64,000 nt of DNA from Candidatus Eiseniibacteriota bacterium (GTDB lineage: Bacteria > Eisenbacteria > RBG-16-71-46), in NCBI GenBank assembly GCA_025357055.1, contig JANXPZ010000125.1:800-64799 (forward strand), given 5' to 3'. Below are positions 1 to 11,089 of this stretch, in pieces. Each line of letters begins with the position of its first letter. The first letter of the stretch is position 1. A model generated the notes under the pieces. That model had not been told where the DNA came from, searched no databases, and saw only the letters and a program-made list of their open reading frames with translations. Made by a program: the position numbers and the translations under genes.

Positions 1-252
1 TTCGGCGGTGAGCCGGGCATCCTGATCCGCGGCCGCAACGGTGAGTACCGCGCCCTCTCCGCCGTCTGCACCCACCTGGGCTGCACCGTCCAGCTTCGCC
101 CCGACGGGCAGTCCATCTGGTGTGCGTGCCACAACGGTCTCTACGACCTCGAGGGACGCAACGTCTCGGGGCCGCCGCCACGGCCGCTCGAGTCCTACGT
201 CGTGCACGTCATCGGCGGGGACGTCGTGGTGGAGAAGGCGAAGGGCGCATGA
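1..252 (+). CDS. Rieske [2Fe-2S] subunit of a cytochrome bc/b6f-type complex (5'-truncated at window edge)
   Basis: Frame 1 from nt 1 reads ...[10 protein letters not shown]...[10 protein letters not shown]..., the two Rieske cluster-binding boxes (CxH...CxxH); the ORF is open to the window start; stop TGA at 250-252 overlaps the next ATG (ATGA). Confidence 0.8.
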
Positions 253-1322
253 ACCTGGCCGACTGGCTGCGCGAACGGCTCGGGCTCGAGGCGCTCGATC
301 ACGTGATCGAGAAGAAGCGCGTCCCGGTCCACCGCCACACGTTCTGGTACTACTGGGGCGGGATGACCCTGTTCCTCTTCGGGGTCCAGGTCGCGACCGG
401 CATCCTGCTCGTCCTCTATTACCGGCCGAGCGCCGACGAGGCCTACGAGAGCGTGCGTTTCCTGATGACGCAGGTCTCCTTCGGGTGGCTCATCCGCTCG
501 ATCCACTCCTGGTCCGCGAATCTGCTGGTGGGCGCGGCCATGATCCACATGTTCAGCGCCTTCATGCTCAAGTCGTACCGCCGGCCGCGCGAGGTGACCT
601 GGCTCACCGGCATGGGGCTCTTCGTGCTGTGCCTGGCCTTCGGCTTCAGCGGCTACCTGCTGCCGTGGAACCAGCTGGCGTTCTTCGCCACCAAGGTGGG
701 CACGGACATCATGGGCAGCGTGCCGCTGGTCGGTCCCTTCCTCGCGCGCCTGCTGCGCGGCGGCGACCAGATCACGGGCGGAACGCTCACGCGCTTCTTC
801 GGCTTCCACGTGGCGATCCTGCCGCTGTGCATGACGGCGCTGCTGGGCATCCACCTGTTCCTGGTGCAGTGGCACGGCATGAGCGTGCCGCCCGGTGCGG
901 AACAGCCCGTGGCCGCGCCGAAGCAGGAGATGAAGTTCGTCCCCGACTTCCTGCTGCGCGACCTGGTGGGCTGGCTCGCCGCGCTGGGCGCGCTCGCGCT
1001 GCTCGCCGCGCTCTTCCCCTGGGAGCTGGGGCTCAAGGCCGACCCCTACGCGTTCGCGCCCGCCGGCATCAAGCCCGAGTGGTATTTCGGATACATGTTC
1101 CAGACCCTGCGCATGATCCCTTCGCGGGTGCTCGGGATCGAGGGCGAGCTGCTGGGCATCGTGGGCTTCGGGCTGGGGGCCCTGGTTTGGGCGCTGGTCC
1201 CCTTCCTCGATGCGCCCGACGGCCGCGGCCCGCGGGCGCGCTTCTGGCGCGTGGTCGGCGTGCTGGCGATGCTCTACGTGGTCGTGTTCACCCTGCTGGT
1301 CTATCGCGGAGGACCCTCGTGA
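249..1322 (+). CDS. Cytochrome b (b6 + subunit-IV-like regions in one ~358 aa polypeptide)
   Basis: [12 protein letters not shown]...[11 protein letters not shown]...[11 protein letters not shown]...[16 protein letters not shown]... matches the cytochrome b/b6 family; length fits fused b6+SUIV; ATGA overlap with the Rieske stop. Confidence 0.85.
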
Positions 1323-2554
1323 GAGCCCTGCGGCGGTTGCTGTTCCTGGCGGGCGCGTTGCTGCTCGCGGCCGCGCCCGCGCGCGCGGTGGTGGACTCCT
1401 GCGTCGAGTGCCACCGCGGGCTCGACGACCCGCGCCTGAAGGCCCCGACCGCTGGCTTCCCGCATGACATCCACGCCGAGCGCGGCCTCACCTGCGCCGC
1501 CTGCCACGGTGGCGATCCGGCGGATCCGGATCCCTCGGCGATGGATCCGGAGAAGGGCTTCAAGGGCGCGCCCACCCGCGCGCAGATCGCTCCGCTGTGC
1601 GCCTCGTGCCACGCCGACGCGGCCTTCATGAAGCGCTACAACCCGCGGCCCTACGTGTTCTCGATGGCCGAGTGGCAGACCAGCGTGCACGCGAAGCTCG
1701 CGGCACGCGGCGACGCCAAGGTCGCCACCTGCACGAGTTGCCACGGCGTGCACGGCATCCGCCCGCCGAAGGACCCCGCCTCGCCGGTCTTCAAGACCAA
1801 CGTGCCGCGGACCTGCGCGAAGTGCCACAACGCCGGCTACATGAAGGGCCACCCGGTCCGCACCGACCAGTTCGCGCTCTATTCGAAGAGCGTGCACGGC
1901 GTGGCGCTGCTGGAGAAGGGGGACGTCTCCGCGCCGGCCTGCAACGACTGCCACGGCAACCACGGGGCCGCGCCGCCGGGCGTGAAGGACGTGACGATGG
2001 TCTGCGGCACCTGCCACGGCCGCGAGGCCGAGTTGTTCGAGGGCAGCCGGATGAAGGCGGGGCTGGACGCGATGGGCAAGCCCGGCTGCGTGACCTGCCA
2101 CGGCAACCACGGGGTGCAGCACCCGACCGACGCCATGCTCTCCGCGGCGCCGGGCGGCACCTGCGCGGGCTGCCACCGTCCCGGCTCGGTGGCCGAGCAG
2201 GGCACGAGCGCGATCGTGGCGAGCTTCCGCGGGCTGCAGGGCTCGCTCTCGACCGCGGACAGCCTGCTCCAGCTGGCCGAGGTGCGCGGCATGGAGACCG
2301 CCCCGGGCCGCGGGAACCTGAAGGAGGCGCAGGACGCCCTGGTCGGCGTGCGCGCCGGGCTGCACAGCTTCGATCCGAAGCAGATCGGCGCCGTCCTCGC
2401 CGAGGGCGCGGGGCTCTCCCGCAAGGCGACGGGCTACGGGCGCGAGGCGTTGCGCGACTGGCACAACCGCCGCTTGGGGATGGTCCTGTCGCTGGTCGTC
2501 ATCCTGATCCTGATCGGCCTCGTGGTCGCGAAGATCCGCCAGATCGAGAATTGA
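1319..2554 (+). CDS. Membrane-anchored multiheme cytochrome c (9 CXXCH), cytochrome subunit of bc complex 1
   Basis: GTG start overlapping the cyt b stop (GTGA); N-terminal signal/anchor; 9 CXXCH motifs (CVECH, CAACH, CASCH, CTSCH, CAKCH, CNDCH, CGTCH, CVTCH, CAGCH); C-terminal hydrophobic helix [19 protein letters not shown]; paralogous to 8273..9493. Confidence 0.8.
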
Positions 2555-2633: not shown

Positions 2634-3457
2634 ATGCCCGCCATGAACACCCGCCTCGCCCTGCTCGGCGTGATGATCGCCGCGCTCCCGCTCGCGGTGG
2701 ATCTCCCGGTCTCGCGTGATTCCTCGCGCACCGGTCCGCTGCAGGTGGAGGTCGCCGGCGGTGGCGGCCAGTTCGCCATCGTGAACCGTGGCTGCGATGG
2801 GCGGGTGCTCCAGGTCACGCGCAACCAGCTGCGTTCCGGCGCGCTCGTGGTCGAGCATCGGCTCCCGGAGGGCTTCGTCGTCGTCGTGCGTGCGGGCGCG
2901 TGCAGACGACGCTGCACCCGATCACGCAGGTCTATGTCGGCGCTCCGGGCCAGCCCTACCGCGACTCGACGCGCACCATCTGGTACTCGAATCGCTACGT
3001 GAACCCGTACGTAGGCTACGAGGGACGCCGGGTGGGCGTGGGCGTCGGCGTGATGAAGGCCGATCGTCCGTTCGATGCCGACCATTCGTGGACCGGCATC
3101 GAGGACCCCCTCCAGGGGGTGCAGGCCGCGAATTCCTTCCATGAGGTGCTCCCCACCGGGCACGTGCGCCTGAGTGGCGAGCGGCACCGCCTGACGCTGC
3201 GCTGGATGGAGGACGTGCCGCTGGAGTCGGAGGGCCACTTCAGCGCGGACCTGGGGTTCCGGTCGAGCCGTCAACTCGAAACCGGCGTGTTCGTGGGTCT
3301 CGCCGGGCCCTACGATGGCGTCATGTTCGGGCTGCGCGGGCGCGTCTGGTTCACGCCGGCGGCCGCGTTGCAGATCAAGGCCTCCGTGTCGAGTGGGGAA
3401 GGCGGGGAGTACGGCGTCTACGGCAGCGTCATCGCGAGGTTGCCGGGCGTGCACTGA
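2634..3457 (+). pseudogene. Secreted hypothetical protein, probably frameshifted (two ORFs 2634..3002 and 2900..3457)
   Basis: Frame 0 gives a signal peptide (MNTRLALLGVMIAALPLAV) and protein-like sequence up to ...FVVVVRAGA, then degenerates into an R-rich tail; frame 2 becomes protein-like from about 2900 (QTTLHPITQVYVGAPGQPYRD...); this is consistent with a -1/+2 frameshift near 2895-2900. Confidence 0.4.
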
Positions 3458-3542: not shown

Positions 3543-4751
3543 CTACGCCGGGTGGATCGGTGCTTCTTCGGCCCGCTTCGCCGGCAGCAGCCGGACGAGC
3601 ACGAAGAGGATCAGGAAGGGCGCGAGCAGCAGCCCGAGCGCGGTGACCAGACCCTCCAGCCCGGTCATCTCCATCTTGTAGGCCATCAGCCCGCGGAAAC
3701 TCTTCGAGAAGAGCTGCCCGCCGATGACCACGTTCCAGCGCGTGCTGAAGATGCCGAGCTGGATCAGGAGCGCCGCGGTGAAGTAGAGGAGCTTCCTCAG
3801 GTCCGGGTTCACGCGCCGGGTGCGCGCCGCCACCAGCACCGCCAGCGGCACGAGCATGCCGAGCAGGACCTGGAGGATGACCAGGTTCATGAAGAGCTTC
3901 ACCGAGATGAGCTGCGCCAGGATCTTCACCGACTCCTCGCTCTGGTAGAGGCGGTGGATGAAGTCGAGCGCCTCGAGCGAGAAGTCCACGACCACGGCGT
4001 AGAACAGGTACGAGGCCACCTTGTCCAGGCACTTCATGTCCAGCGGTTCGTTCCGCAGGGAGGTGATCACCATGTAGAGGAACAGCACCAGCGCGATGCC
4101 GGAGACGATGGCCGACATCAGGAACACGATGGGCATGAGCACGCTGCTCCACCAGGGATTGGCCTTGATGGAGCCGAAGATGAAGCCCACGTAGCCGTGG
4201 AGCAGGAAGGCCGACGGGATGCCCACGATGGTGATCGTCCGGACCGCCTTCCGGTCGAAGGCGACCGCCTGCTCGCTGATGTCGTTCGAGAACAGGGAGA
4301 GCGCGCGGTAGACCCAGCGGAGCGGGGGCTTGTGCTCGCGGCCCCACACCACCAGGTCGCGCCGGTACTCGAACCAGATCTCGAGCAGCAGGATGCCCAT
4401 CAGGTACCAGGCGTAGACGAACCCGAACATGGCCATCGCCGAGGAGAGGTGCGGCGCCAGGAAGATCTCGAACGAGCGCTCCATGTGCCCGAGGTGCAGG
4501 AGCAGCGGGAAGGGCGCCACGAGCAGGAAGGACAGCGCGGTCAGGAGGGCGAGCCGGTAGGTGGGCTGGACCTCCTTCACGTTGAAGACCTTGACCAGCG
4601 AGGCCAGGATGAACGCGCCGGCCACGAGCCCGGTGAGATACGGGTAGACCACGATCAGGATCGACCAGTGGATCTCGATCTCGTTCGGGTAGATGTACCC
4701 GATGACCTGCCCGAGCAGCTCCGTCAGGTTGGGCGGCACCTGGGCGATCAT
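3543..4751 (-). CDS. NrfD/PsrC-family polytopic membrane quinol-interacting subunit
   Basis: 402 aa with 8-10 predicted TM helices; NrfD/PsrC-like sequence (…HLGHMERSFEIFLAPHLSSAMAMFGFVYAWYLMG…); GGAG RBS before the ATG; ATGA overlap with the upstream FeS gene. Confidence 0.8.
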   Translation of the reverse strand: MIAQVPPNLTELLGQVIGYIYPNEIEIHWSILIVVYPYLTGLVAGAFILASLVKVFNVKEVQPTYRLALLTALSFLLVAPFPLLLHLGHMERSFEIFLAPHLSSAMAMFGFVYAWYLMGILLLEIWFEYRRDLVVWGREHKPPLRWVYRALSLFSNDISEQAVAFDRKAVRTITIVGIPSAFLLHGYVGFIFGSIKANPWWSSVLMPIVFLMSAIVSGIALVLFLYMVITSLRNEPLDMKCLDKVASYLFYAVVVDFSLEALDFIHRLYQSEESVKILAQLISVKLFMNLVILQVLLGMLVPLAVLVAARTRRVNPDLRKLLYFTAALLIQLGIFSTRWNVVIGGQLFSKSFRGLMAYKMEMTGLEGLVTALGLLLAPFLILFVLVRLLPAKRAEEAPIHPA

Positions 4752-5523
4752 CGCACCTCTCCGTCGAGCTGGGCGTAGTAGACCTTGGGCTCGGTGTTGA
4801 GCGCGGGCTTCAGCACGTTGATCTTGTTCATGCGCTGGAAGCGCACGAGGCGGCTCGCCTTGCTCCGGAGGTCACCGAAGACGCGCGCCTGGGTCGGGCA
4901 CACCTCGACGCACGCCGGCAGCAGCCCCTTGACCACGCGGTGGTAGCAGAAGGTGCACTTGTCCGCGGTGTTGGTGCGGTGATTGAAGAAGCGTGCCCCG
5001 TAGGGACAGGCCTGGATGCAGTAGCGGCAGCCGATGCAGCGCGTGCTGTCCACCAGCACCACGCCGTCCGCGGTCGTGAAGGTGGCGCCGACCGGGCAGA
5101 CCTGCACGCAGGGCGCGTGCGCGCAGTGGTTGCAGAGCTTCGGCACGAAGAAGGAGCGCAGCACCTCGCGCTCATCCTGCGCCTTCCGCTCCCCGCGCGG
5201 ATTCACGCTGATGCACTCGACCTCGGTCTCGCCGCTCTGCTTCACGGTGTAGCGCTCGACCCAGGTGCGGAAGAAGAACGGCTCGGGGGGCACGTCGTTC
5301 TCGGCCTTGCACGCCTCCGCGCAGCGGTTGCAGCCGATGCACTTCTCGACTTCGATCCCCATCCCGTACCAGTGGTCGCGGGGCTCGTAGCCGGGAGTGG
5401 GCGAACCGGTCGCCCCGGCGGCGCCCGCGACCGACGCCTCCGCCTGGCGCATCAGGGCCTGGAGCACGGCGGCGGCCGGGATGAAGGCGATGGCCCCCTT
5501 CTTGAGGAACTCGCGCTTGTTCA
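4748..5523 (-). CDS. 4Fe-4S ferredoxin-type iron-sulfur subunit (NrfC/PsrB/HybA family), Tat-like signal
   Basis: MNKREFLKKGAIAFIPAAA... followed by four Cys clusters (CIGCNRCAEAC, CNHCAHAPCVQVCP, CIGCRYCIQACP, CTFC...CVEVCP); the track ORF 4748..6079 is actually two genes; ATGA overlaps on both sides. Confidence 0.85.
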
Positions 5524-6255
5524 TGGCCGTCCTTCCGGCAGGTGGGGGTAGTGACACTGCCAGCAGAGGTAGCCGCCGCCGTGGCTGGCGAGCTCCACCT
5601 TGGGCGCGTCCGGGTTGGCCGTGCCGCCGGCGTGGCACTGCCCGCAGAACTCGCGGGTCTGGGGCTTGCTGGGAAGCGCGCTGCGGGGCGCGATCCGGTG
5701 CTCCTTGCTCGCGGTGTGGCAGGTCGCGCAGGGCAGCAGCGCGTGCGCCGAGAGCGCCACGGTGCGGGCGATCTGCGCGTGGCAGGCCGCGCACTCCTTC
5801 GGGGTCTCCGGCGGCACCGGGTCGTGCGGGTTGTGGCAGGTGATGCAGGGCTTGAGCGGATTGTGGGATTCCGTGTTGATCTGCGGGAAGCCCGTGGGCC
5901 GTGCCGCGTCGTAGGCATGGCAGACCGGGCAGAACTTGCGGTCGCGGGGGGCGAAGGGCTTGACCGACATCGGGTCCTCCGCGTGTCCGGCGGCCGGTCC
6001 GTGGCAGGTCTCGCAGGCGAGCCCCTTGTGGTAGCCCAGGGCTTTCTTTTCCCACTCCTCCGCGTGGCAATCCTGGCACGCGGACGCGCCGGCGAAGTTG
6101 ACGGGCCGGGCGACCTCGCGCCGCACGGTGGCGGACTGGTGCACCGCGGTGGAGAAGTAGGCGCGCGGGATCAGCACGAATCGCACGAGCAGAGCCAGCG
6201 TCGCGACGAGCGCGACCACCACCGCGATGCGCGTGACCTGCTCGGGGAGCTTCAA
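5521..6255 (-). CDS. Membrane-anchored octaheme cytochrome c
   Basis: TTG start 4 nt after a GGAGG RBS; N-terminal TM helix; 8 CXXCH (CQDCH, CETCH, CPVCH, CITCH, CAACH, CATCH, CGQCH, CWQCH); stop overlaps the FeS gene start. Confidence 0.8.
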   Translation of the reverse strand: MKLPEQVTRIAVVVALVATLALLVRFVLIPRAYFSTAVHQSATVRREVARPVNFAGASACQDCHAEEWEKKALGYHKGLACETCHGPAAGHAEDPMSVKPFAPRDRKFCPVCHAYDAARPTGFPQINTESHNPLKPCITCHNPHDPVPPETPKECAACHAQIARTVALSAHALLPCATCHTASKEHRIAPRSALPSKPQTREFCGQCHAGGTANPDAPKVELASHGGGYLCWQCHYPHLPEGRP

Positions 6256-6454: not shown

Positions 6455-8272
6455 CTAGTCCTGGTGACACTGCGCGCAGGCGGACTTCGCCGGCCGCAAC
6501 TGCCCGGCGGCGGGGTCGTGACAGGTCTGGCACTCGAGGTCCATGTCGAGGTGGGCCTGGTGCGAGAACTCGCCGCGGAAGCTCTTCACGGTGCGCGTCT
6601 TCACGTCGGCGTGGCACGGCAGGCACGAGCCCCCGGCGGCCGCGGTCTTCCGATGATGGCAGGGCACACAGCCGGCCGGCCCGAAACGCACGACCTCTCC
6701 GCCCGCGCGTTCCTCGTGCGTCCGGTGGCAGGCGTCGCACTCGAGCTTCGCCTTGAGCAGGTGCGGACCATGGTCGAAGGCCCTGCCCTGCCAGGCCCCG
6801 CGCTGCGCCTCGACGCCGGTGTGGCACAGCATGCAGCGCCCCGAACTGGCGCCCGTGCGCCGCCACGGCAGCTCGAGCGGGGCCAGCCCCTTCGCGCGGC
6901 GGGCCTGGTTCATCAGCTCGTGGGAGCGCTCGAGCAGGGCGTAGGCGTACGTCATGTTGTGCACGGCCTTGCCCTGCGAGACCAGCAGGAAGTCGTGCCG
7001 CGCGTCCTGCCACGCCTGCGACGGCTCCAGGCCCATCGCGCCTGCGGTCGCTTCGAGCTGGCGCTGCAGCGCGGCGACACGCTGCGCGGAGGCGCTCTGC
7101 CAGGACCTGAAGATCGCCTGGTACCCGGGCCCGTGGCAGGCCATGCAGGAGACGCCGTCGGCACGCTGGATGACGGGCTCGAGCGGGCCCTTCGCGGCCT
7201 GGGTCGCGACGGCCTCCCCGTTGTGACAGCCCTGGCAGGTGACGCCGACCGCGGCCATCGGTCCGGGCTGGTCGGGCACGCCGCGCCCGCCGGTGCCGGC
7301 ATAGAGGCTCTGCTGAGCGCCGTGGCCCGCGCCGTGGCAGGGCCCGCAACTGCCCGCGTCGACGGCGCCCGCGCCGTGCGCGTCGGCGCGCGCGCCCTTC
7401 GGCGGGGCGCCGTGCGCGATCACGAGGTGGCAGTTCGTGCAGTCCACCTTGCGCTTGGAGACGTGCCAGTCGTGCAGGTAGTCCGGATCGCCGTAGCGCG
7501 CGAGCCGCTCCGGCTGGTTGTGGCAGGTGAGGCAGCGGATCTGCGGCACGTCGCCGGTCCCGCGGATCACGCCCGCGTGGCAGGCGCTGCACGAAGTGCC
7601 GAGGCGCGAGACCTCGCCATGGTCGAACGACACGCCGGCGGCGGTGGTGACGCGCCCGGGGACGGCGTGGCAGAGCCGGCAGCGGGCGGTGCCCTGATCG
7701 GGCGCCTCGCCCTTGAAGTGGCACAACGCGCAGGTCGTGGGGGTCACGGCGATGTGCGAGCCGACCATGACCTGCGAGTGGCACGAGGTGCAGCGCAGCC
7801 GGAAGCCCTTGCGGCTCTCGGTGAGGTGCGGGGTGTGGTCGAAGACCACGCCCTGGAAGTCGACCTTTCCCTCCAGCAGCCGGCGCTCGTGGCAGCGCAG
7901 GCAGTTGGCGTCGTCCACTTCGGCCCAGGGCTTGGTGCCGTAGGTGGCGGTGAAGTACTTCACGACCATCGAGAGCGCCTCGTACTTCTTGCGCAGTTCG
8001 GCGCCGATCCCCGGCGAGATGTGGCACTCCACGCAGGCGATGCGGTTGTGCTTCGACGTCTTCCAGGAGGCGTAGTACGGCTTCATCAGGTGGCAGGTCC
8101 CGCAGAACTGCGGCGTCGAGGTGCCGAGCATCGCGATCAGGGTGAGCACGACGAACAGTCCCAGAGCGAGCCCGGCGGCCAGCGTGAGGCCGCGCAGGCT
8201 GCGCCATCCGCCGCGGCCGCCCGGCCAGCGGCCGCGGGGCGGGGCGGGACCCGGCCCCGGGACGCCGGACAC
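6455..8272 (-). CDS. 18-heme c-type cytochrome, NapC/NirT/NrfH-family N-terminus fused to a large multiheme extension
   Basis: GTG start abutting the stop of 8273..9493 with 0 nt spacer; TM helix then ...STPQFCGTCHLMKPYYASWKTSKHN...CVECH (NapC/NrfH signature); 18 CXXCH in total. Confidence 0.75.
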   Translation of the reverse strand: MSGVPGPGPAPPRGRWPGGRGGWRSLRGLTLAAGLALGLFVVLTLIAMLGTSTPQFCGTCHLMKPYYASWKTSKHNRIACVECHISPGIGAELRKKYEALSMVVKYFTATYGTKPWAEVDDANCLRCHERRLLEGKVDFQGVVFDHTPHLTESRKGFRLRCTSCHSQVMVGSHIAVTPTTCALCHFKGEAPDQGTARCRLCHAVPGRVTTAAGVSFDHGEVSRLGTSCSACHAGVIRGTGDVPQIRCLTCHNQPERLARYGDPDYLHDWHVSKRKVDCTNCHLVIAHGAPPKGARADAHGAGAVDAGSCGPCHGAGHGAQQSLYAGTGGRGVPDQPGPMAAVGVTCQGCHNGEAVATQAAKGPLEPVIQRADGVSCMACHGPGYQAIFRSWQSASAQRVAALQRQLEATAGAMGLEPSQAWQDARHDFLLVSQGKAVHNMTYAYALLERSHELMNQARRAKGLAPLELPWRRTGASSGRCMLCHTGVEAQRGAWQGRAFDHGPHLLKAKLECDACHRTHEERAGGEVVRFGPAGCVPCHHRKTAAAGGSCLPCHADVKTRTVKSFRGEFSHQAHLDMDLECQTCHDPAAGQLRPAKSACAQCHQD

Positions 8273-9493
8273 CTAGCGGTTCCTCGCGGCCTGGTCGCGG
8301 AAGCGCTTGAGCACGAACAGCGTCAGCAGCACGTAGAACCAGAACGCGATGAGCACGTAGCGGTGCTGGCGCAGGTTCGCGAACTTGCCCTCGAGCTCCT
8401 TCTGCACCTCCTCACCCACCGCGCGGGCGCGGGTGGTGAAGCCGGCCACGACCTCCGGTTGCACGGAGTGCGCGGCGGGCAGCGCTTCACGCAGGTAGGT
8501 GTGCGCCTCCTCGATGCGGGCGTGATAGTCCTCGGTCTGGATCGGGATGGCGTCGGCCTTCGCGACCAGGGCCGCGGCCTTGTCCACCTCGGCCGCGGCG
8601 GTGCGGTATTCGGTCCAGAGCCTGCGGCCCAGGTCGAGCCGCCGCGCGTCGCCGGCGTGGCAGACGGCGCACGACGAGGCGAGACGCTCGGGCCGGGCCG
8701 CCTGCACACCGTGGGCCTCGTGGCAGGACGCGCACTCGGGGCGCCTGCCGCCGCGTGCCACGGCGTGGCCGCCCGAGGTGTAGTAGCGCCGTTCGGCGGT
8801 GTGGCACTGGCCGCACACCTTGTCGACGTCGCCGACGTTGGGCGGATTGGCGCCGTGCACGCCGTGGCAGGACACGCAGGTTGGCGCGCGCAGGTTGCCC
8901 TGCTCGAAGAGCGCCCGCGCGTGGACGCTCGACTGGTACTTCTTCAGCACGTCCTGGTGCTCGCGCGCCCCTGGCATGGCCCGGCTGCCGTGGCAGCGCC
9001 CGCAGGTCTGCGGGATGTTGAGCTGGTTGACGCTGCTCGCCGGGTCGTGGGGCGCGAGGATCTCGTGCGCGCCGTGGCAGTCCGAGCAGACGGCGACCTG
9101 GCGGTCGCCCCGGGCGAGGCGCTGGCCGTGACCCGACGTCTGGTAGAGCGCGTACTGGTCCACGGGCAGGTTGTAGGGGCGCATGCGCCCCTCGTCGGAG
9201 TGGCAGGTGGCGCAAAGTGCCGGGATGTCCTGGCGCGCGGGACGGCCCCGGAAGCCGGCGCCGTGCGCGGCCCCCGCGTCGAGGCTGCGGTCGTTGCCGC
9301 CGTGGCACGAGACGCAACGCACGCCTTCGGGTGCGTGACGGCTCTTCTCGAACTGGACGCGCTCGGCCGGGTGGCAGACGCCGCAGCGGCCCGAGGACGC
9401 GGTGATCGCCGCCGGTCCCGCCGGCGGGACGGTCTGGGCGTGGGCGGTCAGGGTCGCGACCGCGAGGAGCAGGAACACGAGCGGGGTCTTCAT
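8273..9493 (-). CDS. Membrane-anchored multiheme cytochrome c (9 CXXCH), cytochrome subunit of bc complex 2
   Basis: GGAGG RBS 7 nt upstream of the ATG; signal peptide MKTPLVFLLLAVATLTAHA; 9 CXXCH; C-terminal TM helix; clear paralogy to 1319..2554 (e.g. CATCHSDEGRMRPYN.../[15 protein letters not shown]...). Confidence 0.85.
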   Translation of the reverse strand: MKTPLVFLLLAVATLTAHAQTVPPAGPAAITASSGRCGVCHPAERVQFEKSRHAPEGVRCVSCHGGNDRSLDAGAAHGAGFRGRPARQDIPALCATCHSDEGRMRPYNLPVDQYALYQTSGHGQRLARGDRQVAVCSDCHGAHEILAPHDPASSVNQLNIPQTCGRCHGSRAMPGAREHQDVLKKYQSSVHARALFEQGNLRAPTCVSCHGVHGANPPNVGDVDKVCGQCHTAERRYYTSGGHAVARGGRRPECASCHEAHGVQAARPERLASSCAVCHAGDARRLDLGRRLWTEYRTAAAEVDKAAALVAKADAIPIQTEDYHARIEEAHTYLREALPAAHSVQPEVVAGFTTRARAVGEEVQKELEGKFANLRQHRYVLIAFWFYVLLTLFVLKRFRDQAARNR

Positions 9494-9497
9494 CGCC

Positions 9498-10628
9498 CTA
9501 CCTCCGCTCGAGCAGCGCGCCGAGCACGCTGAGCACGAGCCACACCAGGAGCACCGCGGCGCCCGCCAGCCGGATGCGCAGCCTGCGCCCGGGGGTCTCG
9601 TCGCGGCGCAGCCACAGCGGCAGGAGCAGCACCGCGAACGCGGCGGCCAGCATCACGAACCCGCTCAGCCAGGGCAGGGGCAGGCGCTGGAGCAGGACGT
9701 AGGGCGCCAGCATGTACCACGGGGGCCGCACCCCGCCGGGGGTGACGTACGGGTCGGCCGCCCCGTGGAAGCGCAGCGGCAGCAGCGTGGCCAGCGTCAC
9801 GAGGATCGCGAACAACCCGACCGTGAGCATGGTCATCGAGTAGAGATGTTCGCGATAGCGGATGGGCCTTTCGTCGCGGGCCGGTCCGGTCTGGCTCAGG
9901 CCGACGCGGCGCAGCGTGGCGAAGGTGAGGTAGAGGAAGGCGGCGTAGAACGCCGGCAGCACCATGACGTGCAGCACGTAGAAGCGGATCAGCACGTCCG
10001 CGTTCACGGTCCGTCCGCCCAGCAGGAACGCCAGGATGGGCCCGGCGATGGGGATCGCCCACACCACCTCGAGCCCGCGCACCGTGCTCCAGTAGGTGTG
10101 GGAGTCCCAGGTGAGGAGCCGTCCGGTGAAGTCCGACTGGATGACCACCCAGGTCATGGCCACCGCGCACCACCACAGCACCTCGCGCGGCGCGCGGTAC
10201 AGGCCCTCCCAGAACAGCCGCAGCAGGCGCAGCACGATGACCGCCACCAGCAGCCACGAGCCCCAGGCGTGCACCTGGTGGATGAACCAGCCGCCCGGCA
10301 GGTCGCGCACGATGGTGCGCGTGCTCTCGAAGGCGGCCTCGGGCGTGGGCCGGTAGTAGTAGGCGAGCAGCACGCCCGTCACGATCTGCAGGCCGAACAG
10401 GATGGCCGCCAGCAGGCCCAGCACGCGGGCGCCGTGCGCGTAGCGCGGCACCGGTTCGGCGGCCACCTCGCGCAGCACCTCGCGCACCGGCTTCTGCGTG
10501 TCCACCGGCGTATAGACCAGGCCGAAGTGGGTGATGAAGGAGAAGATCTCGCTCAGGTTCACGCGCTGCTCAAGCCAGTCCACCCAGCCCCCGCGCGCGG
10601 GCGGGCCCTGCCTGCCGGGCGCGTTCAT
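9498..10628 (-). CDS. Cytochrome b (b6 + subunit-IV-like), bc complex 2
   Basis: MNAPGRQGPP... then the cytochrome b family (…LLAYYYRPTPEAAFEST…GRLLTWDSHTYWSTV…); ATGA overlap with the Rieske stop; the track ORF's N-terminal extension is rejected. Confidence 0.85.
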   Translation of the reverse strand: MNAPGRQGPPARGGWVDWLEQRVNLSEIFSFITHFGLVYTPVDTQKPVREVLREVAAEPVPRYAHGARVLGLLAAILFGLQIVTGVLLAYYYRPTPEAAFESTRTIVRDLPGGWFIHQVHAWGSWLLVAVIVLRLLRLFWEGLYRAPREVLWWCAVAMTWVVIQSDFTGRLLTWDSHTYWSTVRGLEVVWAIPIAGPILAFLLGGRTVNADVLIRFYVLHVMVLPAFYAAFLYLTFATLRRVGLSQTGPARDERPIRYREHLYSMTMLTVGLFAILVTLATLLPLRFHGAADPYVTPGGVRPPWYMLAPYVLLQRLPLPWLSGFVMLAAAFAVLLLPLWLRRDETPGRRLRIRLAGAAVLLVWLVLSVLGALLERR

Positions 10629-11089
10629 ACCTGGACGAAGATCTCGCCGGCGCGGACCGACACCGGGTAGCTGGGGAGCGGCCGGGGCGGCGGGCCGGAG
10701 AGCACGTTGCCCGAGAGGTCGAAGCGCCCGTCGTGGCAGGGGCAGACCAGCGTCCTGCGGGCCGGTTCGTAGCCCAGGATGCAGCGCACGTGCGTGCACA
10801 CCGCCGAGAGGGCCAGAACGCGCGTGGCGTCGAGCCGGACCACGTAGAAGGGCGTCACCCCGTGACGGACGAGGCGACCTTCGCCCACGCGGTAGTCGGC
10901 CAGGAGTCCGGCGCTCACGGTGCGCTCGGCCTCGCGCTTCTCGGGCGCCTTGAGATAGGCGCCCACCACGGCGGCGGCGCCGAGCCCCCAGAGCGCGAGG
11001 AAGGTCTGCGAGAGCACGGTGAGGAAACGGCGCCGGTCCGCAGGGCCGGACGCCGGCAGGTGGATCGGACGGTCTTCAGGGATCGGCAT
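10625..11089 (-). CDS. Rieske [2Fe-2S] protein with Tat signal, bc complex 2
   Basis: MPIPEDRPIHLPASGPADRRRFLTVLSQ (twin-arginine), CTHVRC...CPCHDG Rieske boxes; 154 aa. Confidence 0.85.
   Translation of the reverse strand: MPIPEDRPIHLPASGPADRRRFLTVLSQTFLALWGLGAAAVVGAYLKAPEKREAERTVSAGLLADYRVGEGRLVRHGVTPFYVVRLDATRVLALSAVCTHVRCILGYEPARRTLVCPCHDGRFDLSGNVLSGPPPRPLPSYPVSVRAGEIFVQV

What the first reader, a model, noticed from the sequence alone, without database searches (positions are those of the whole stretch)
3543..6255. NrfD/PsrC + 4Fe-4S + octaheme cytochrome module (Cbc-type quinol:cytochrome c oxidoreductase) embedded between the two bc operons
Three translationally coupled genes (ATGA overlaps at 5521 and 4749) form a molybdopterin-less member of the complex-iron-sulfur-molybdoenzyme membrane module family. 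The architecture matches Geobacter-type Cbc quinol oxidoreductases implicated in potential-dependent extracellular respiration. Its placement inside a bc/cytochrome island gives the organism at least four quinol-oxidising entry points within 11 kb.
Basis: partly seen in the sequence, partly recalled or inferred. Interest (0 to 1): 0.5.

Follow-up and report, generated by a model that had tools for sequence, protein, structure and literature searches.

The report
Octahaem–FeS–NrfD quinone module
Three tightly packed genes encode a membrane complex (eight-haem cytochrome, four-cluster iron-sulfur protein, NrfD-type membrane subunit) that most likely moves electrons between the membrane quinone pool and cytochromes outside the cell membrane; this is a known kind of respiratory module, here in an unstudied version that is widespread in uncultured bacteria.

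Summary
Window 3543-6255 (minus strand) holds three intact genes joined by ATGA start/stop overlaps. They encode a membrane-anchored cytochrome c with 8 CxxCH motifs (244 aa), a Tat-signal protein with 16 Cys for four [4Fe-4S] clusters (258 aa), and an NrfD/PsrC-family membrane protein (402 aa, 9 predicted helices). No molybdopterin subunit is present.

The gene order cytochrome-FeS-NrfD is kept in about 80 genomes from more than 15 mostly uncultured phyla. All 16 haem-ligand His residues are invariant. The NrfD subunit is closest to ActC of alternative complex III. It keeps the quinone-site His and Ser and the mid-membrane Arg.

The octahaem is a tandem duplication of the anchored tetrahaem unit found in more distant modules built like Geobacter Cbc4 (CbcSTU), for example in Ferroglobus.

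A Rieske/cytochrome b/nonahaem operon lies within 9 kb in 17 of 42 loci. In some it sits directly downstream on the same strand.

Best reading: a (mena)quinol:multihaem-cytochrome c oxidoreductase of the molybdopterin-free NrfCD/Cbc4 type. The direction of electron flow is unproven. It is a new member of a known kind, of moderate-to-low interest.

The parts
5521..6255 (-). Membrane-anchored octahaem cytochrome c (244 aa, TTG start). It has an N-terminal transmembrane helix at residues 10-28 and two homologous tetrahaem halves (about residues 55-149 and 150-244). All eight haems are predicted to be bis-His.
   Evidence: 8 CxxCH motifs and one hydrophobic helix. Multihaem Pfam hits. The two halves are 39% identical, E 1e-16. 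The 8 proximal and 8 distal His are 100% conserved in 75 orthologues. The AF2 model is poor (pTM 0.36) and gave no significant fold match.
4748..5524 (-). Periplasmic iron-sulfur subunit of NrfC/PsrB type (258 aa), with four [4Fe-4S] motifs. It has a Tat-type signal, MNKREFLKK...AEA, the KR variant. There is no transmembrane helix and no molybdopterin domain.
   Evidence: Fer4_11 at 98 bits. 16 Cys in four motifs. Closest solved chains are PsrB 2vpw_B (E 5.5e-45) and ArrB 6cz7_B. Best NCBIfam scores are below cut-off: TtrB 218 against 416 and DsrO 188 against 200. The Tat motif is RR in 61 and KR in 15 of 80 orthologues.
3543..4751 (-). NrfD/PsrC-family integral membrane subunit (402 aa), with 9 predicted transmembrane helices: the 8-helix core plus one C-terminal helix. 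The N-terminus is predicted outside and the C-terminus inside. The putative quinone site lies on the outer (P) side (His86, Ser104, N-terminal PNExE..W motif), and Arg338 sits mid-membrane.
   Evidence: PF03916 at 124.7 bits. AF2 gave pLDDT 74, pTM 0.78 and the helix list. The best fold matches are ActC 8k9e_C and 6f0k_C, TM 0.62-0.64; PsrC scores 0.29. A family profile hits only ActC chains in the PDB (E 5e-16), which aligns H86 to H139, S104 to S164 and R338 to R395. Conservation is shown. Residue roles come from PMC8076601.
6256..6454 (.). A 199-bp spacer between the upstream 18-haem gene and the module. It may hold the module's own promoter, or the module may be read through from upstream. 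This is undecided.
   Evidence: No sigma-70-like or terminator-like site of note was found. The spacer length varies in relatives, 135 to about 330 bp.
6455..8272 (-). Context: a 605-aa cytochrome with 18 CxxCH motifs and an N-terminal NapC/NirT domain. It is the last gene of the upstream bc operon.
   Evidence: PF03264 at 53 bits. Haem count. Homologues lie next to the module in 11 of 81 loci.
8273..11089 (-). Context: the upstream operon on the same strand. It comprises Rieske (10625..11089), cytochrome b (9498..10631) and a nonahaem cytochrome c with a C-terminal anchor (8273..9493).
   Evidence: Pfam hits. Haem count. The same order is seen in relatives L001 and L002.
1..2554 (+). Context: the convergent operon. 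It comprises the 3' end of a Rieske gene (1..252, cut by the window edge), cytochrome b (246..1322) and a nonahaem cytochrome c (1319..2554). This type of bc operon is the most frequent neighbour of the module in other genomes.
   Evidence: It is the bc type linked in 19 of the 21 loci that have a linked cyt b.

Best explanation
The three genes encode one membrane complex of the molybdopterin-free NrfCD type. The 9-helix NrfD-like subunit binds (mena)quinol or quinone at a site on the outer face of the membrane. The Tat-exported subunit docks onto it and wires that site through four [4Fe-4S] clusters to the cytochrome. The cytochrome is held by a single N-terminal helix and carries eight low-potential bis-His haems in two tetrahaem units.

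The most likely job is quinol dehydrogenase: taking electrons from the quinone pool and handing them to periplasmic or membrane multihaem cytochromes. The island encodes 36 further c-haems. This is how the related NrfBCD, SirCD and Cbc4 modules are thought to work. Conserved polar residues in the membrane helices, including Arg338, allow but do not prove coupling to proton movement.

Shown: gene structure, cofactor motifs, family, conservation, synteny and fold. Inferred: subunit assembly, topology, quinone type, direction of electron flow, the partner, and any coupling to proton movement.
For: - Domain and motif content.
- The gene order is invariant and the genes are tightly spaced or overlapping in about 80 genomes of more than 15 phyla.
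- All 16 haem-ligand His and the FeS cysteines are conserved.
- Tat motifs are near-universal.
- The NrfD fold and profile are closest to ActC, the quinol-oxidising subunit of alternative complex III.
- His86, Ser104 and Arg338 occupy the positions named as quinone-site and gate residues in PMC8076601.
- No molybdopterin or other catalytic gene travels with the module.
- The cytochrome's N-terminal half is homologous to the anchored tetrahaems of more distant modules built like Cbc4.
- Precedents: SirCD can replace the quinol dehydrogenase CymA (PMC11434368). CbcS has bis-His haems at -41 to -212 mV and reduces PpcA (bioRxiv 10.1101/2025.04.14.648717). The same prediction has been made for NrfCD clusters in Melioribacter and MBNT15 (PMC3534657, PMC9386147).
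Against: - No member of this octahaem subfamily, nor Geobacter Cbc4 as a complex, has been characterised biochemically. A cbcS deletion has no phenotype (bioRxiv 10.1101/2025.04.14.648717).
- Modules of the same build run in reverse in Qrc (PMC13059093), so sequence cannot fix the direction.
- Two ActC quinone-site aspartates (D169, D253) are not conserved here; the equivalents are F109 and I191.
- If the module only duplicates the quinol-oxidising job of a bc complex, it is odd that it so often sits beside one, sometimes directly adjacent on the same strand.
- The cytochrome model is too poor to place the haems.
Confidence: 0.6

Rival explanations
1. The complex is the same but runs in reverse, like Qrc. 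It takes electrons from low-potential periplasmic donors (multihaem cytochromes fed by Fe(II), H2, formate or an extracellular donor) and reduces the quinone at the outer face, taking protons from the cytoplasm. The neighbouring Rieske/cyt b/nonahaem complex then re-oxidises the quinol. Together they would form an energy-conserving quinone loop.
For: - The QrcCD module has the same build. It is the only NrfCD-type complex with demonstrated electrogenic activity, and it works in the quinone-reducing direction (PMC13059093).
- A Rieske/cyt b operon lies within 9 kb in 17 of 42 loci, and directly downstream on the same strand in L018, L024, L026, L030 and L064. This fits two complementary complexes better than two redundant ones.
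- A 43%-identical NrfD subfamily occurs in iron-oxidising Gallionellaceae and Ca. Ferrigenium.
- All eight haems are bis-His, so probably low-potential.
Against: - No periplasmic hydrogenase, formate dehydrogenase or Cyc2/Mto-type iron oxidase gene is in the window or in the neighbourhoods inspected.
- The closest solved relative of the NrfD subunit is ActC, a quinol oxidiser.
- Linkage to a bc operon is absent in about 60% of loci.
Confidence: 0.25
2. The module is not a stand-alone enzyme. It is a subcomplex of a larger assembly with the adjacent Rieske/cyt b/nonahaem complex, and in this genome the 18-haem NapC/NirT protein. The octahaem would act as the wire between the two quinone-reactive units.
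For: - Linkage to bc operons recurs, and in some genomes they sit directly adjacent on the same strand.
- In the window, the module follows the upstream bc operon on the same strand after a 199-bp spacer with no detected terminator.
- Both nonahaem subunits and the octahaem are membrane-anchored.
Against: - More than half of the loci with at least 5 kb of flank on each side have no bc genes nearby. Where bc genes are present, their position and orientation vary.
- The three-gene unit is the only invariant block.
- More distant tetrahaem versions, such as those of Ferroglobus and Desulfurellaceae, stand alone.
Confidence: 0.1
3. The module is the membrane anchor and electron-transfer part of a conventional molybdoenzyme (Psr/Ttr/Arr-like) or of a haem reductase (Nrf/Mcc/Sir-like) whose catalytic subunit is encoded elsewhere.
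For: - The FeS subunit scores best against TtrB, DsrO, ArrB and NrfC models.
- Its closest solved relatives are PsrB and ArrB.
Against: - All those scores are below the curated cut-offs.
- No molybdopterin, NrfA, MccA or SirA gene lies in the window flanks or in annotated relatives.
- A dedicated, co-translated, invariant octahaem occupies the position where such operons carry the catalytic or haem partner.
Confidence: 0.05

Closest known systems
Geobacter sulfurreducens Cbc4 (CbcSTU, GSU0068-0070) and modules of the same build in other lineages, e.g. Ferroglobus sp. (F. placidus is reported to encode complexes named Cbc4)
   Same: Both have three genes in the order anchored multihaem c, four-[4Fe-4S] protein, integral membrane subunit, with no molybdopterin subunit. 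Both cytochromes have an N-terminal helix anchor and bis-His haems. The N-terminal half of the window cytochrome, including its anchor, is homologous to the 154-184-aa tetrahaems that precede FeS and NrfD genes in more distant relatives (E 1e-14 to 2e-20).
   Different: This cytochrome has eight haems through an internal duplication; CbcS has four. It has no NapC/NirT Pfam match. NrfD identity to the tetrahaem-type relatives is only 35-48%. Orthology to the Geobacter genes themselves was not testable. The physiological role of Cbc4 is itself unknown.
Alternative complex III (ActABCDEF)
   Same: The gene order is the same: anchored multihaem, FeS, NrfD-like. The NrfD subunit is closest in sequence profile and fold to ActC. 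It shares the equivalents of His139, Ser164 and Arg395.
   Different: There is no ActB1 molybdopterin-like domain and no ActD, ActE or ActF. The subunit has 9 helices rather than 10 and lacks ActC's N-terminal 70 residues. All four clusters have four Cys, whereas ActB has one [3Fe-4S] cluster. The cytochrome is octahaem, not pentahaem, and did not match ActA chains.
NrfBCD / SirCD / MccCD-type quinol dehydrogenase modules
   Same: They share the NrfC-like four-cluster protein plus NrfD-like subunit acting as a quinol dehydrogenase for periplasmic haem proteins. SirCD can replace CymA (PMC11434368).
   Different: NCBIfam scores are far below the cut-offs: NrfC 147 against 378 and NrfD 42 against 348. 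No NrfA, SirA or MccA is nearby. Here the cytochrome is membrane-anchored and is an integral, invariant part of the operon.
QrcABCD (cytochrome c3:menaquinone oxidoreductase)
   Same: Both have a multihaem c subunit, an FeS subunit and an NrfD-like subunit, with a quinone site on the outer face and conserved Ser and Arg equivalents (PMC13059093).
   Different: There is no QrcB (molybdopterin-like) subunit. The QrcC and QrcD models score far below cut-off. Qrc runs in the quinone-reducing direction; the direction here is unknown.

Membership tests
NrfD/PsrC family (Pfam PF03916) membrane subunit | Match to the family profile above the curated threshold | tested here: met
   124.7 bits against a cut-off of 25.8, covering profile positions 8-311 of 313.
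NrfD/PsrC family (Pfam PF03916) membrane subunit | Eight-helix core of two four-helix bundles, with no redox cofactor | tested here: met
   AF2 gives 9 long helices. The fold matches ActC and ActF at TM 0.52-0.64. Only two His (86 and 185) are family-wide conserved, and both align to non-ligand His of ActC. Absence of a cofactor is inferred.
NrfD/PsrC family (Pfam PF03916) membrane subunit | Quinone-site residues: a conserved Ser at the pocket entry and a His, Asp or Glu at the end of TMH2; also a mid-membrane Arg in TMH8 (PMC8076601) | tested here: met
   S104, H86 and R338 align to ActC S164, H139 and R395. Each is at least 90% conserved in 75 orthologues.
Molybdopterin-free NrfCD-type redox module (CISM-derived) | NrfC/PsrB-type subunit with four Cys4 cluster motifs and a Tat signal | tested here: met
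   16 Cys in four motifs. PsrB match at E 5.5e-45. The window has a KR Tat-like motif; orthologues have RR or KR in 76 of 80.
Molybdopterin-free NrfCD-type redox module (CISM-derived) | No molybdopterin catalytic subunit associated | tested here: met
   No PF00384-type gene is in window 1-15 kb or in the Pfam-annotated neighbourhoods of L001 and L002. No extra conserved gene appears across 80 loci. A gene elsewhere in the genome cannot be excluded.
Geobacter Cbc4 (CbcSTU) | Operon of anchored c-type cytochrome, 4x[4Fe-4S] protein and integral membrane protein | tested here: met
   The description of Cbc4 comes from bioRxiv 10.1101/2025.04.14.648717.
Geobacter Cbc4 (CbcSTU) | The cytochrome is a tetrahaem with a NapC/NirT-like haem core | tested here: not met
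   There are eight CxxCH motifs and no PF03264 hit. However, each half is a tetrahaem unit homologous to the anchored tetrahaems of relatives with the same build.
Geobacter Cbc4 (CbcSTU) | Orthology to GSU0068-0070 | not testable with these tools
   The Geobacter sequences were not obtainable. The CbcS sequence appears only as an image in the supplement.
Alternative complex III | ActB with an N-terminal molybdopterin-like domain, plus ActD, ActE and ActF subunits | tested here: not met
   The FeS protein is 258 aa with Fer4 domains only. The window has a single NrfD-like gene and no further act-like genes.
NrfABCD nitrite reductase module | Equivalog-level match to NrfC and NrfD, with NrfA and NrfB nearby | tested here: not met
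   NrfC scores 147 against 378 and NrfD 42 against 348. No NrfA-like gene is in the flanks.
DsrMKJOP | Equivalog-level match to DsrO and DsrP, plus DsrM, DsrK and DsrJ | tested here: not met
   DsrO scores 188.3 against 200, just below cut-off. DsrP scores 40 against 350. No DsrMK-like genes are present.
QrcABCD | QrcB molybdopterin-like subunit and equivalog-level match to QrcC and QrcD | tested here: not met
   QrcC scores 109 against 400. The QrcD model did not match the window protein at the thresholds used, E 0.01 and 1e-5. There is no QrcB-like gene.

The most novel reading that the evidence does not exclude
The octahaem-FeS-NrfD module and the Rieske/cytochrome b/nonahaem complex that so often sits beside it are an obligate functional pair. 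They would form either a quinone loop (one reduces the quinone, the other oxidises the quinol) or a physical supercomplex. That would be an unrecognised, energy-conserving respiratory system shared by many uncultured soil, groundwater and sediment phyla, such as Eisenbacteria, Methylomirabilota, Gemmatimonadota, Acidobacteriota, Zixibacteria and Ignavibacteria.
Probability: 0.15. Interest if true: 0.65.

Novelty: new member of a known kind. Interest (0 to 1): 0.3.

Why it matters
Molybdopterin-free NrfCD modules with their own cytochrome are routinely predicted in genome papers, but almost none has been studied biochemically.

This octahaem subfamily is unusually conserved. NrfD identity is 62-97% across more than 15 phyla, with a median of 65% to the window protein. 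It is also abundant: at least 586 species-level genomes and about 1,800 cytochrome clusters. Public databases annotate it only as 'hypothetical' or by wrong names.

If its direction and partners were established, one more entry or exit point of the quinone pool could be assigned in many uncultured soil and subsurface bacteria that are rich in multihaem cytochromes. That bears on iron and other extracellular redox cycling.

For this window alone, the result is a confirmed and sharpened annotation, not a surprise.

Tried and rejected
- **PDB, single sequence.** The window NrfD protein gave no match at E <= 1. A family profile was needed.
- **Genome-collection scan.** The first attempt with a 31-sequence alignment failed for lack of a conserved stretch. 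It was repeated with 8 closer sequences. Only the 80 best loci were returned, all of them MAGs, so Geobacter and Melioribacter copies were not seen.
- **Cytochrome structure.** The AF2 model was poor (pTM 0.36). Foldseek found nothing significant beyond a weak c7-like subdomain match to octahaem nitrite reductases. No haem-core assignment was attempted.
- **Promoter and terminator scan.** Nothing usable was found.
- **NCBIfam.** No curated family is reached by the window proteins or by 30 diverse NrfD relatives.
- **CbcS sequence.** The preprint's supplement holds it only as an image. Smith et al. 2015 on Ferroglobus was not available.
- **Literature.** Searches for the exact architecture (NrfD + octaheme + Rieske; Gallionellaceae + NrfD) found nothing specific.
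- **Family memberships rejected.** ACIII, Qrc, Nrf, Dsr and Ttr/Psr (see the membership tests).
- **Rest of the window.** Positions 14-64 kb hold unrelated genes and do not inform function.
Full report
**1. What is in the sequence**

The window has about 72% G+C. Many spurious ORFs therefore appear, and third-position G+C was used to pick the real ones.

- 5521..6255: 244 aa, TTG start five bases after GGAGG.
- 4748..5524: 258 aa.
- 3543..4751: 402 aa.

They are joined by ATGA start/stop overlaps at 5524-5521 and 4751-4748.

The first protein has eight CxxCH motifs, nine further His and one N-terminal hydrophobic helix (residues 10-28). That helix has no obvious signal-peptidase site.

The second has 16 Cys in four ferredoxin-type motifs and no transmembrane helix. 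Its N-terminus is MNKREFLKK...AEA, a Tat-type signal with KR in place of RR. Pfam gives Fer4_11 at 98 bits. Its nearest solved relatives are PsrB of Thermus polysulfide reductase (E 5.5e-45) and ArrB.

The third matches Pfam NrfD at 124.7 bits over the whole profile.

No curated NCBIfam equivalog is reached. TtrB scores 218 against 416, DsrO 188 against 200, NrfC 147 against 378, NrfD 42 against 348 and DsrP 40 against 350.

**2. Surroundings**

Upstream on the same strand are:
- Rieske (10625..11089).
- Cytochrome b (9498..10631).
- A nonahaem cytochrome with a C-terminal anchor (8273..9493).
- A 605-aa protein with 18 CxxCH and an N-terminal NapC/NirT domain (6455..8272).

A 199-bp spacer then separates these from the module.

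Converging from the plus strand is a second operon. It comprises the end of a Rieske gene cut by the window edge (1..252), cytochrome b (246..1322) and another nonahaem cytochrome (1319..2554).

No molybdopterin gene is present. The remainder of the window is unrelated.

**3. Relatives**

The NrfD protein has thousands of close homologues. The best 120 are 75-97% identical and are named only 'HybB-like' or 'NrfD/PsrC family'.

A scan of one genome per species found at least 586 genomes with a relative. The 80 best have 62-95% identity and are all metagenome-assembled. They come from Eisenbacteria, Methylomirabilota/Rokubacteria, Acidobacteriota, Binatia, Myxococcota, Gemmatimonadota, Ignavibacteria, Calditrichota, Zixibacteria, Planctomycetota, Elusimicrobia, Krumholzibacteria, Steroidobacteraceae and others.

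The closest genome is a Candidatus Eisenbacteria MAG (95% identity), so the window is probably from that phylum.

In these loci the order cytochrome, FeS, NrfD on one strand is essentially invariant. Family-wide figures:
- 75 of 77 cytochromes have exactly eight CxxCH.
- Gene junctions are mostly -4 to +3 bases.
- The FeS N-terminus carries RR in 61 and KR in 15 of 80.

The KR in the window is therefore a natural variant of a Tat signal. By my own recollection, Salmonella TtrB is a precedent.

In an alignment of 75 orthologues, all eight proximal and eight distal His of the cytochrome are 100% conserved, which predicts eight bis-His haems. Median identity to the window is 50% for the cytochrome, 60% for the FeS protein and 65% for NrfD.

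**4. The cytochrome is a duplicated tetrahaem**

Its two halves (about 55-149 and 150-244) have the same motif spacing and are 39% identical (E 1e-16).

In more distant NrfD subfamilies (35-48% identity), the gene before the FeS gene encodes a 154-184-aa protein. That protein has an N-terminal anchor and four CxxCH. These subfamilies include a Ferroglobus sp. archaeon, a Desulfurellaceae MAG and other unnamed contigs.

The small protein aligns with the anchor plus first half of the window cytochrome (E 1e-14 to 2e-20). It also aligns, more weakly, with the second half.

This is the build described for Geobacter Cbc4. CbcS has a 29-residue anchor and four bis-His haems at -41 to -212 mV. CbcT has four [4Fe-4S] clusters. 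CbcU is an integral membrane subunit (bioRxiv 10.1101/2025.04.14.648717).

A Gallionellaceae/Ca. Ferrigenium subfamily has the tetrahaem unit extended by two class-I c domains. It also has a FAD-linked oxidase gene two genes downstream.

**5. The membrane subunit**

A profile of 31 diverse relatives hits only ActC chains of alternative complex III in the PDB (E 5e-16, full length). PsrC is not hit.

An AF2 model (pLDDT 74, pTM 0.78) shows nine long helices. Foldseek ranks ActC first (TM 0.62-0.64), then ActF, with PsrC at 0.29.

Relative to ActC, the protein lacks the first 70 or so residues but keeps the extra C-terminal helix. The loops after helices 1, 3, 5 and 7 and the C-terminal tail are rich in Arg and Lys. 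I therefore infer N-terminus outside and C-terminus inside.

In the profile alignment:
- His86 aligns to ActC His139.
- Ser104 aligns to Ser164.
- Arg338 aligns to Arg395.

The review PMC8076601 names these three positions as the TMH2 proton-exchange residue, the Ser common to all quinone-reactive NrfD proteins, and the mid-membrane gate. All three are conserved in at least 90% of orthologues.

ActC Asp169 and Asp253 are not conserved here; the equivalents are F109 and I191. Further conserved polar residues sit in the helices (E124, D256, E260, D263, Q294), which is compatible with a proton path.

**6. Linkage to bc complexes**

Among 42 loci with at least 5 kb on both sides, 17 have a Rieske/cyt b operon within 9 kb. 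In 19 of the 21 linked cases overall, it is the type that converges on the module in the window.

Its position and orientation vary. In L018, L024, L026, L030 and L064 the Rieske gene follows NrfD directly on the same strand. In L068, L075 and L081 the bc operon precedes the cytochrome gene.

A homologue of the 18-haem protein is nearby in 11 loci. This association is far above chance. It is not obligatory.

**7. Mechanism**

The best-supported reading is a three-subunit complex with the path: quinone site on the outer face of NrfD, four FeS clusters, eight haems, then periplasmic or membrane multihaem partners.

Several observations favour quinol oxidation:
- The similarity to ActC.
- The absence of periplasmic donor enzymes nearby.
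- Precedents: SirCD replaces CymA (PMC11434368), and CbcS reduces PpcA.
- The same prediction made for NrfCD clusters in Melioribacter and MBNT15 (PMC3534657, PMC9386147).

The reverse, Qrc-like direction is a serious rival, for two reasons. Qrc is the only such module with proven electrogenic activity (PMC13059093). Co-location with a quinol-oxidising bc complex also makes more sense for complementary than for redundant enzymes.

Direction, partners and coupling to proton movement are all inferred.

**8. Comparison and verdict**

The module fails the membership tests for ACIII, Qrc, Nrf, Dsr and Ttr/Psr. It fits the general class of molybdopterin-free NrfCD modules. Within that class it fits the Cbc4 build, except that the cytochrome has eight haems rather than four. 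Orthology to the Geobacter genes could not be tested.

The finding is real and correctly interpreted. It is a new member of a known kind, belonging to an unstudied, very widespread and very conserved octahaem subfamily. Interest is moderate to low. The one lead worth following is the recurrent pairing with a specific Rieske/cyt b/nonahaem complex.

Noticed in passing
window 2634..3457 (+): Two overlapping ORFs (2634..3002 and 2900..3457). High third-position G+C switches from the first frame to the second near position 2895. This looks like one gene of about 270 aa, with a signal-peptide-like N-terminus, broken by a frameshift. It has no Pfam hit. It is absent from the two closest relatives examined (L001, L002), where only about 80-90 bp separate the NrfD gene from the convergent nonahaem gene. 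It has no tblastn hit in the other loci.
   Followed up: partly
window 6455..8272 (-): A 605-aa cytochrome with 18 CxxCH motifs, fused to an N-terminal NapC/NirT quinol-dehydrogenase-type domain. With the octahaem and the two nonahaems, the 11-kb island encodes 44 c-type haem sites.
   Followed up: partly
P0125, P0130, P0238 (50%-identity representatives); L083 10362-11765: Some distant NrfD relatives appear fused at the C-terminus to a FAD-linked oxidase domain or to NHL repeats. In Ca. Ferrigenium, a separate FAD-oxidase gene lies two genes downstream of the NrfD gene. This may point to a cytoplasmic partner in that subfamily, or the fusions may be gene-calling artefacts.
   Followed up: partly
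Homologues of window 5521..6255 in public databases: JGI names for the octahaem's homologues include 'DnaJ-class molecular chaperone' and 'ribosomal protein S27AE'. NCBI calls them hypothetical. These look like mis-annotations caused by the Cys-rich sequence.
   Followed up: no
L001 14670-20632 (closest genome, beyond the window's left edge): The cytochrome island continues past the window edge. It holds a 946-aa multihaem protein, a c554-like protein, and a 695-aa multihaem protein with a Ni_hydr_CYTB (dihaem b) domain, which resembles Geobacter CbcL.
   Followed up: no
window 1..252 (+): The window starts inside a Rieske gene (CTHLGC...CACHNG). Its stop codon overlaps the start of the cytochrome b gene at 246.
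   Followed up: yes
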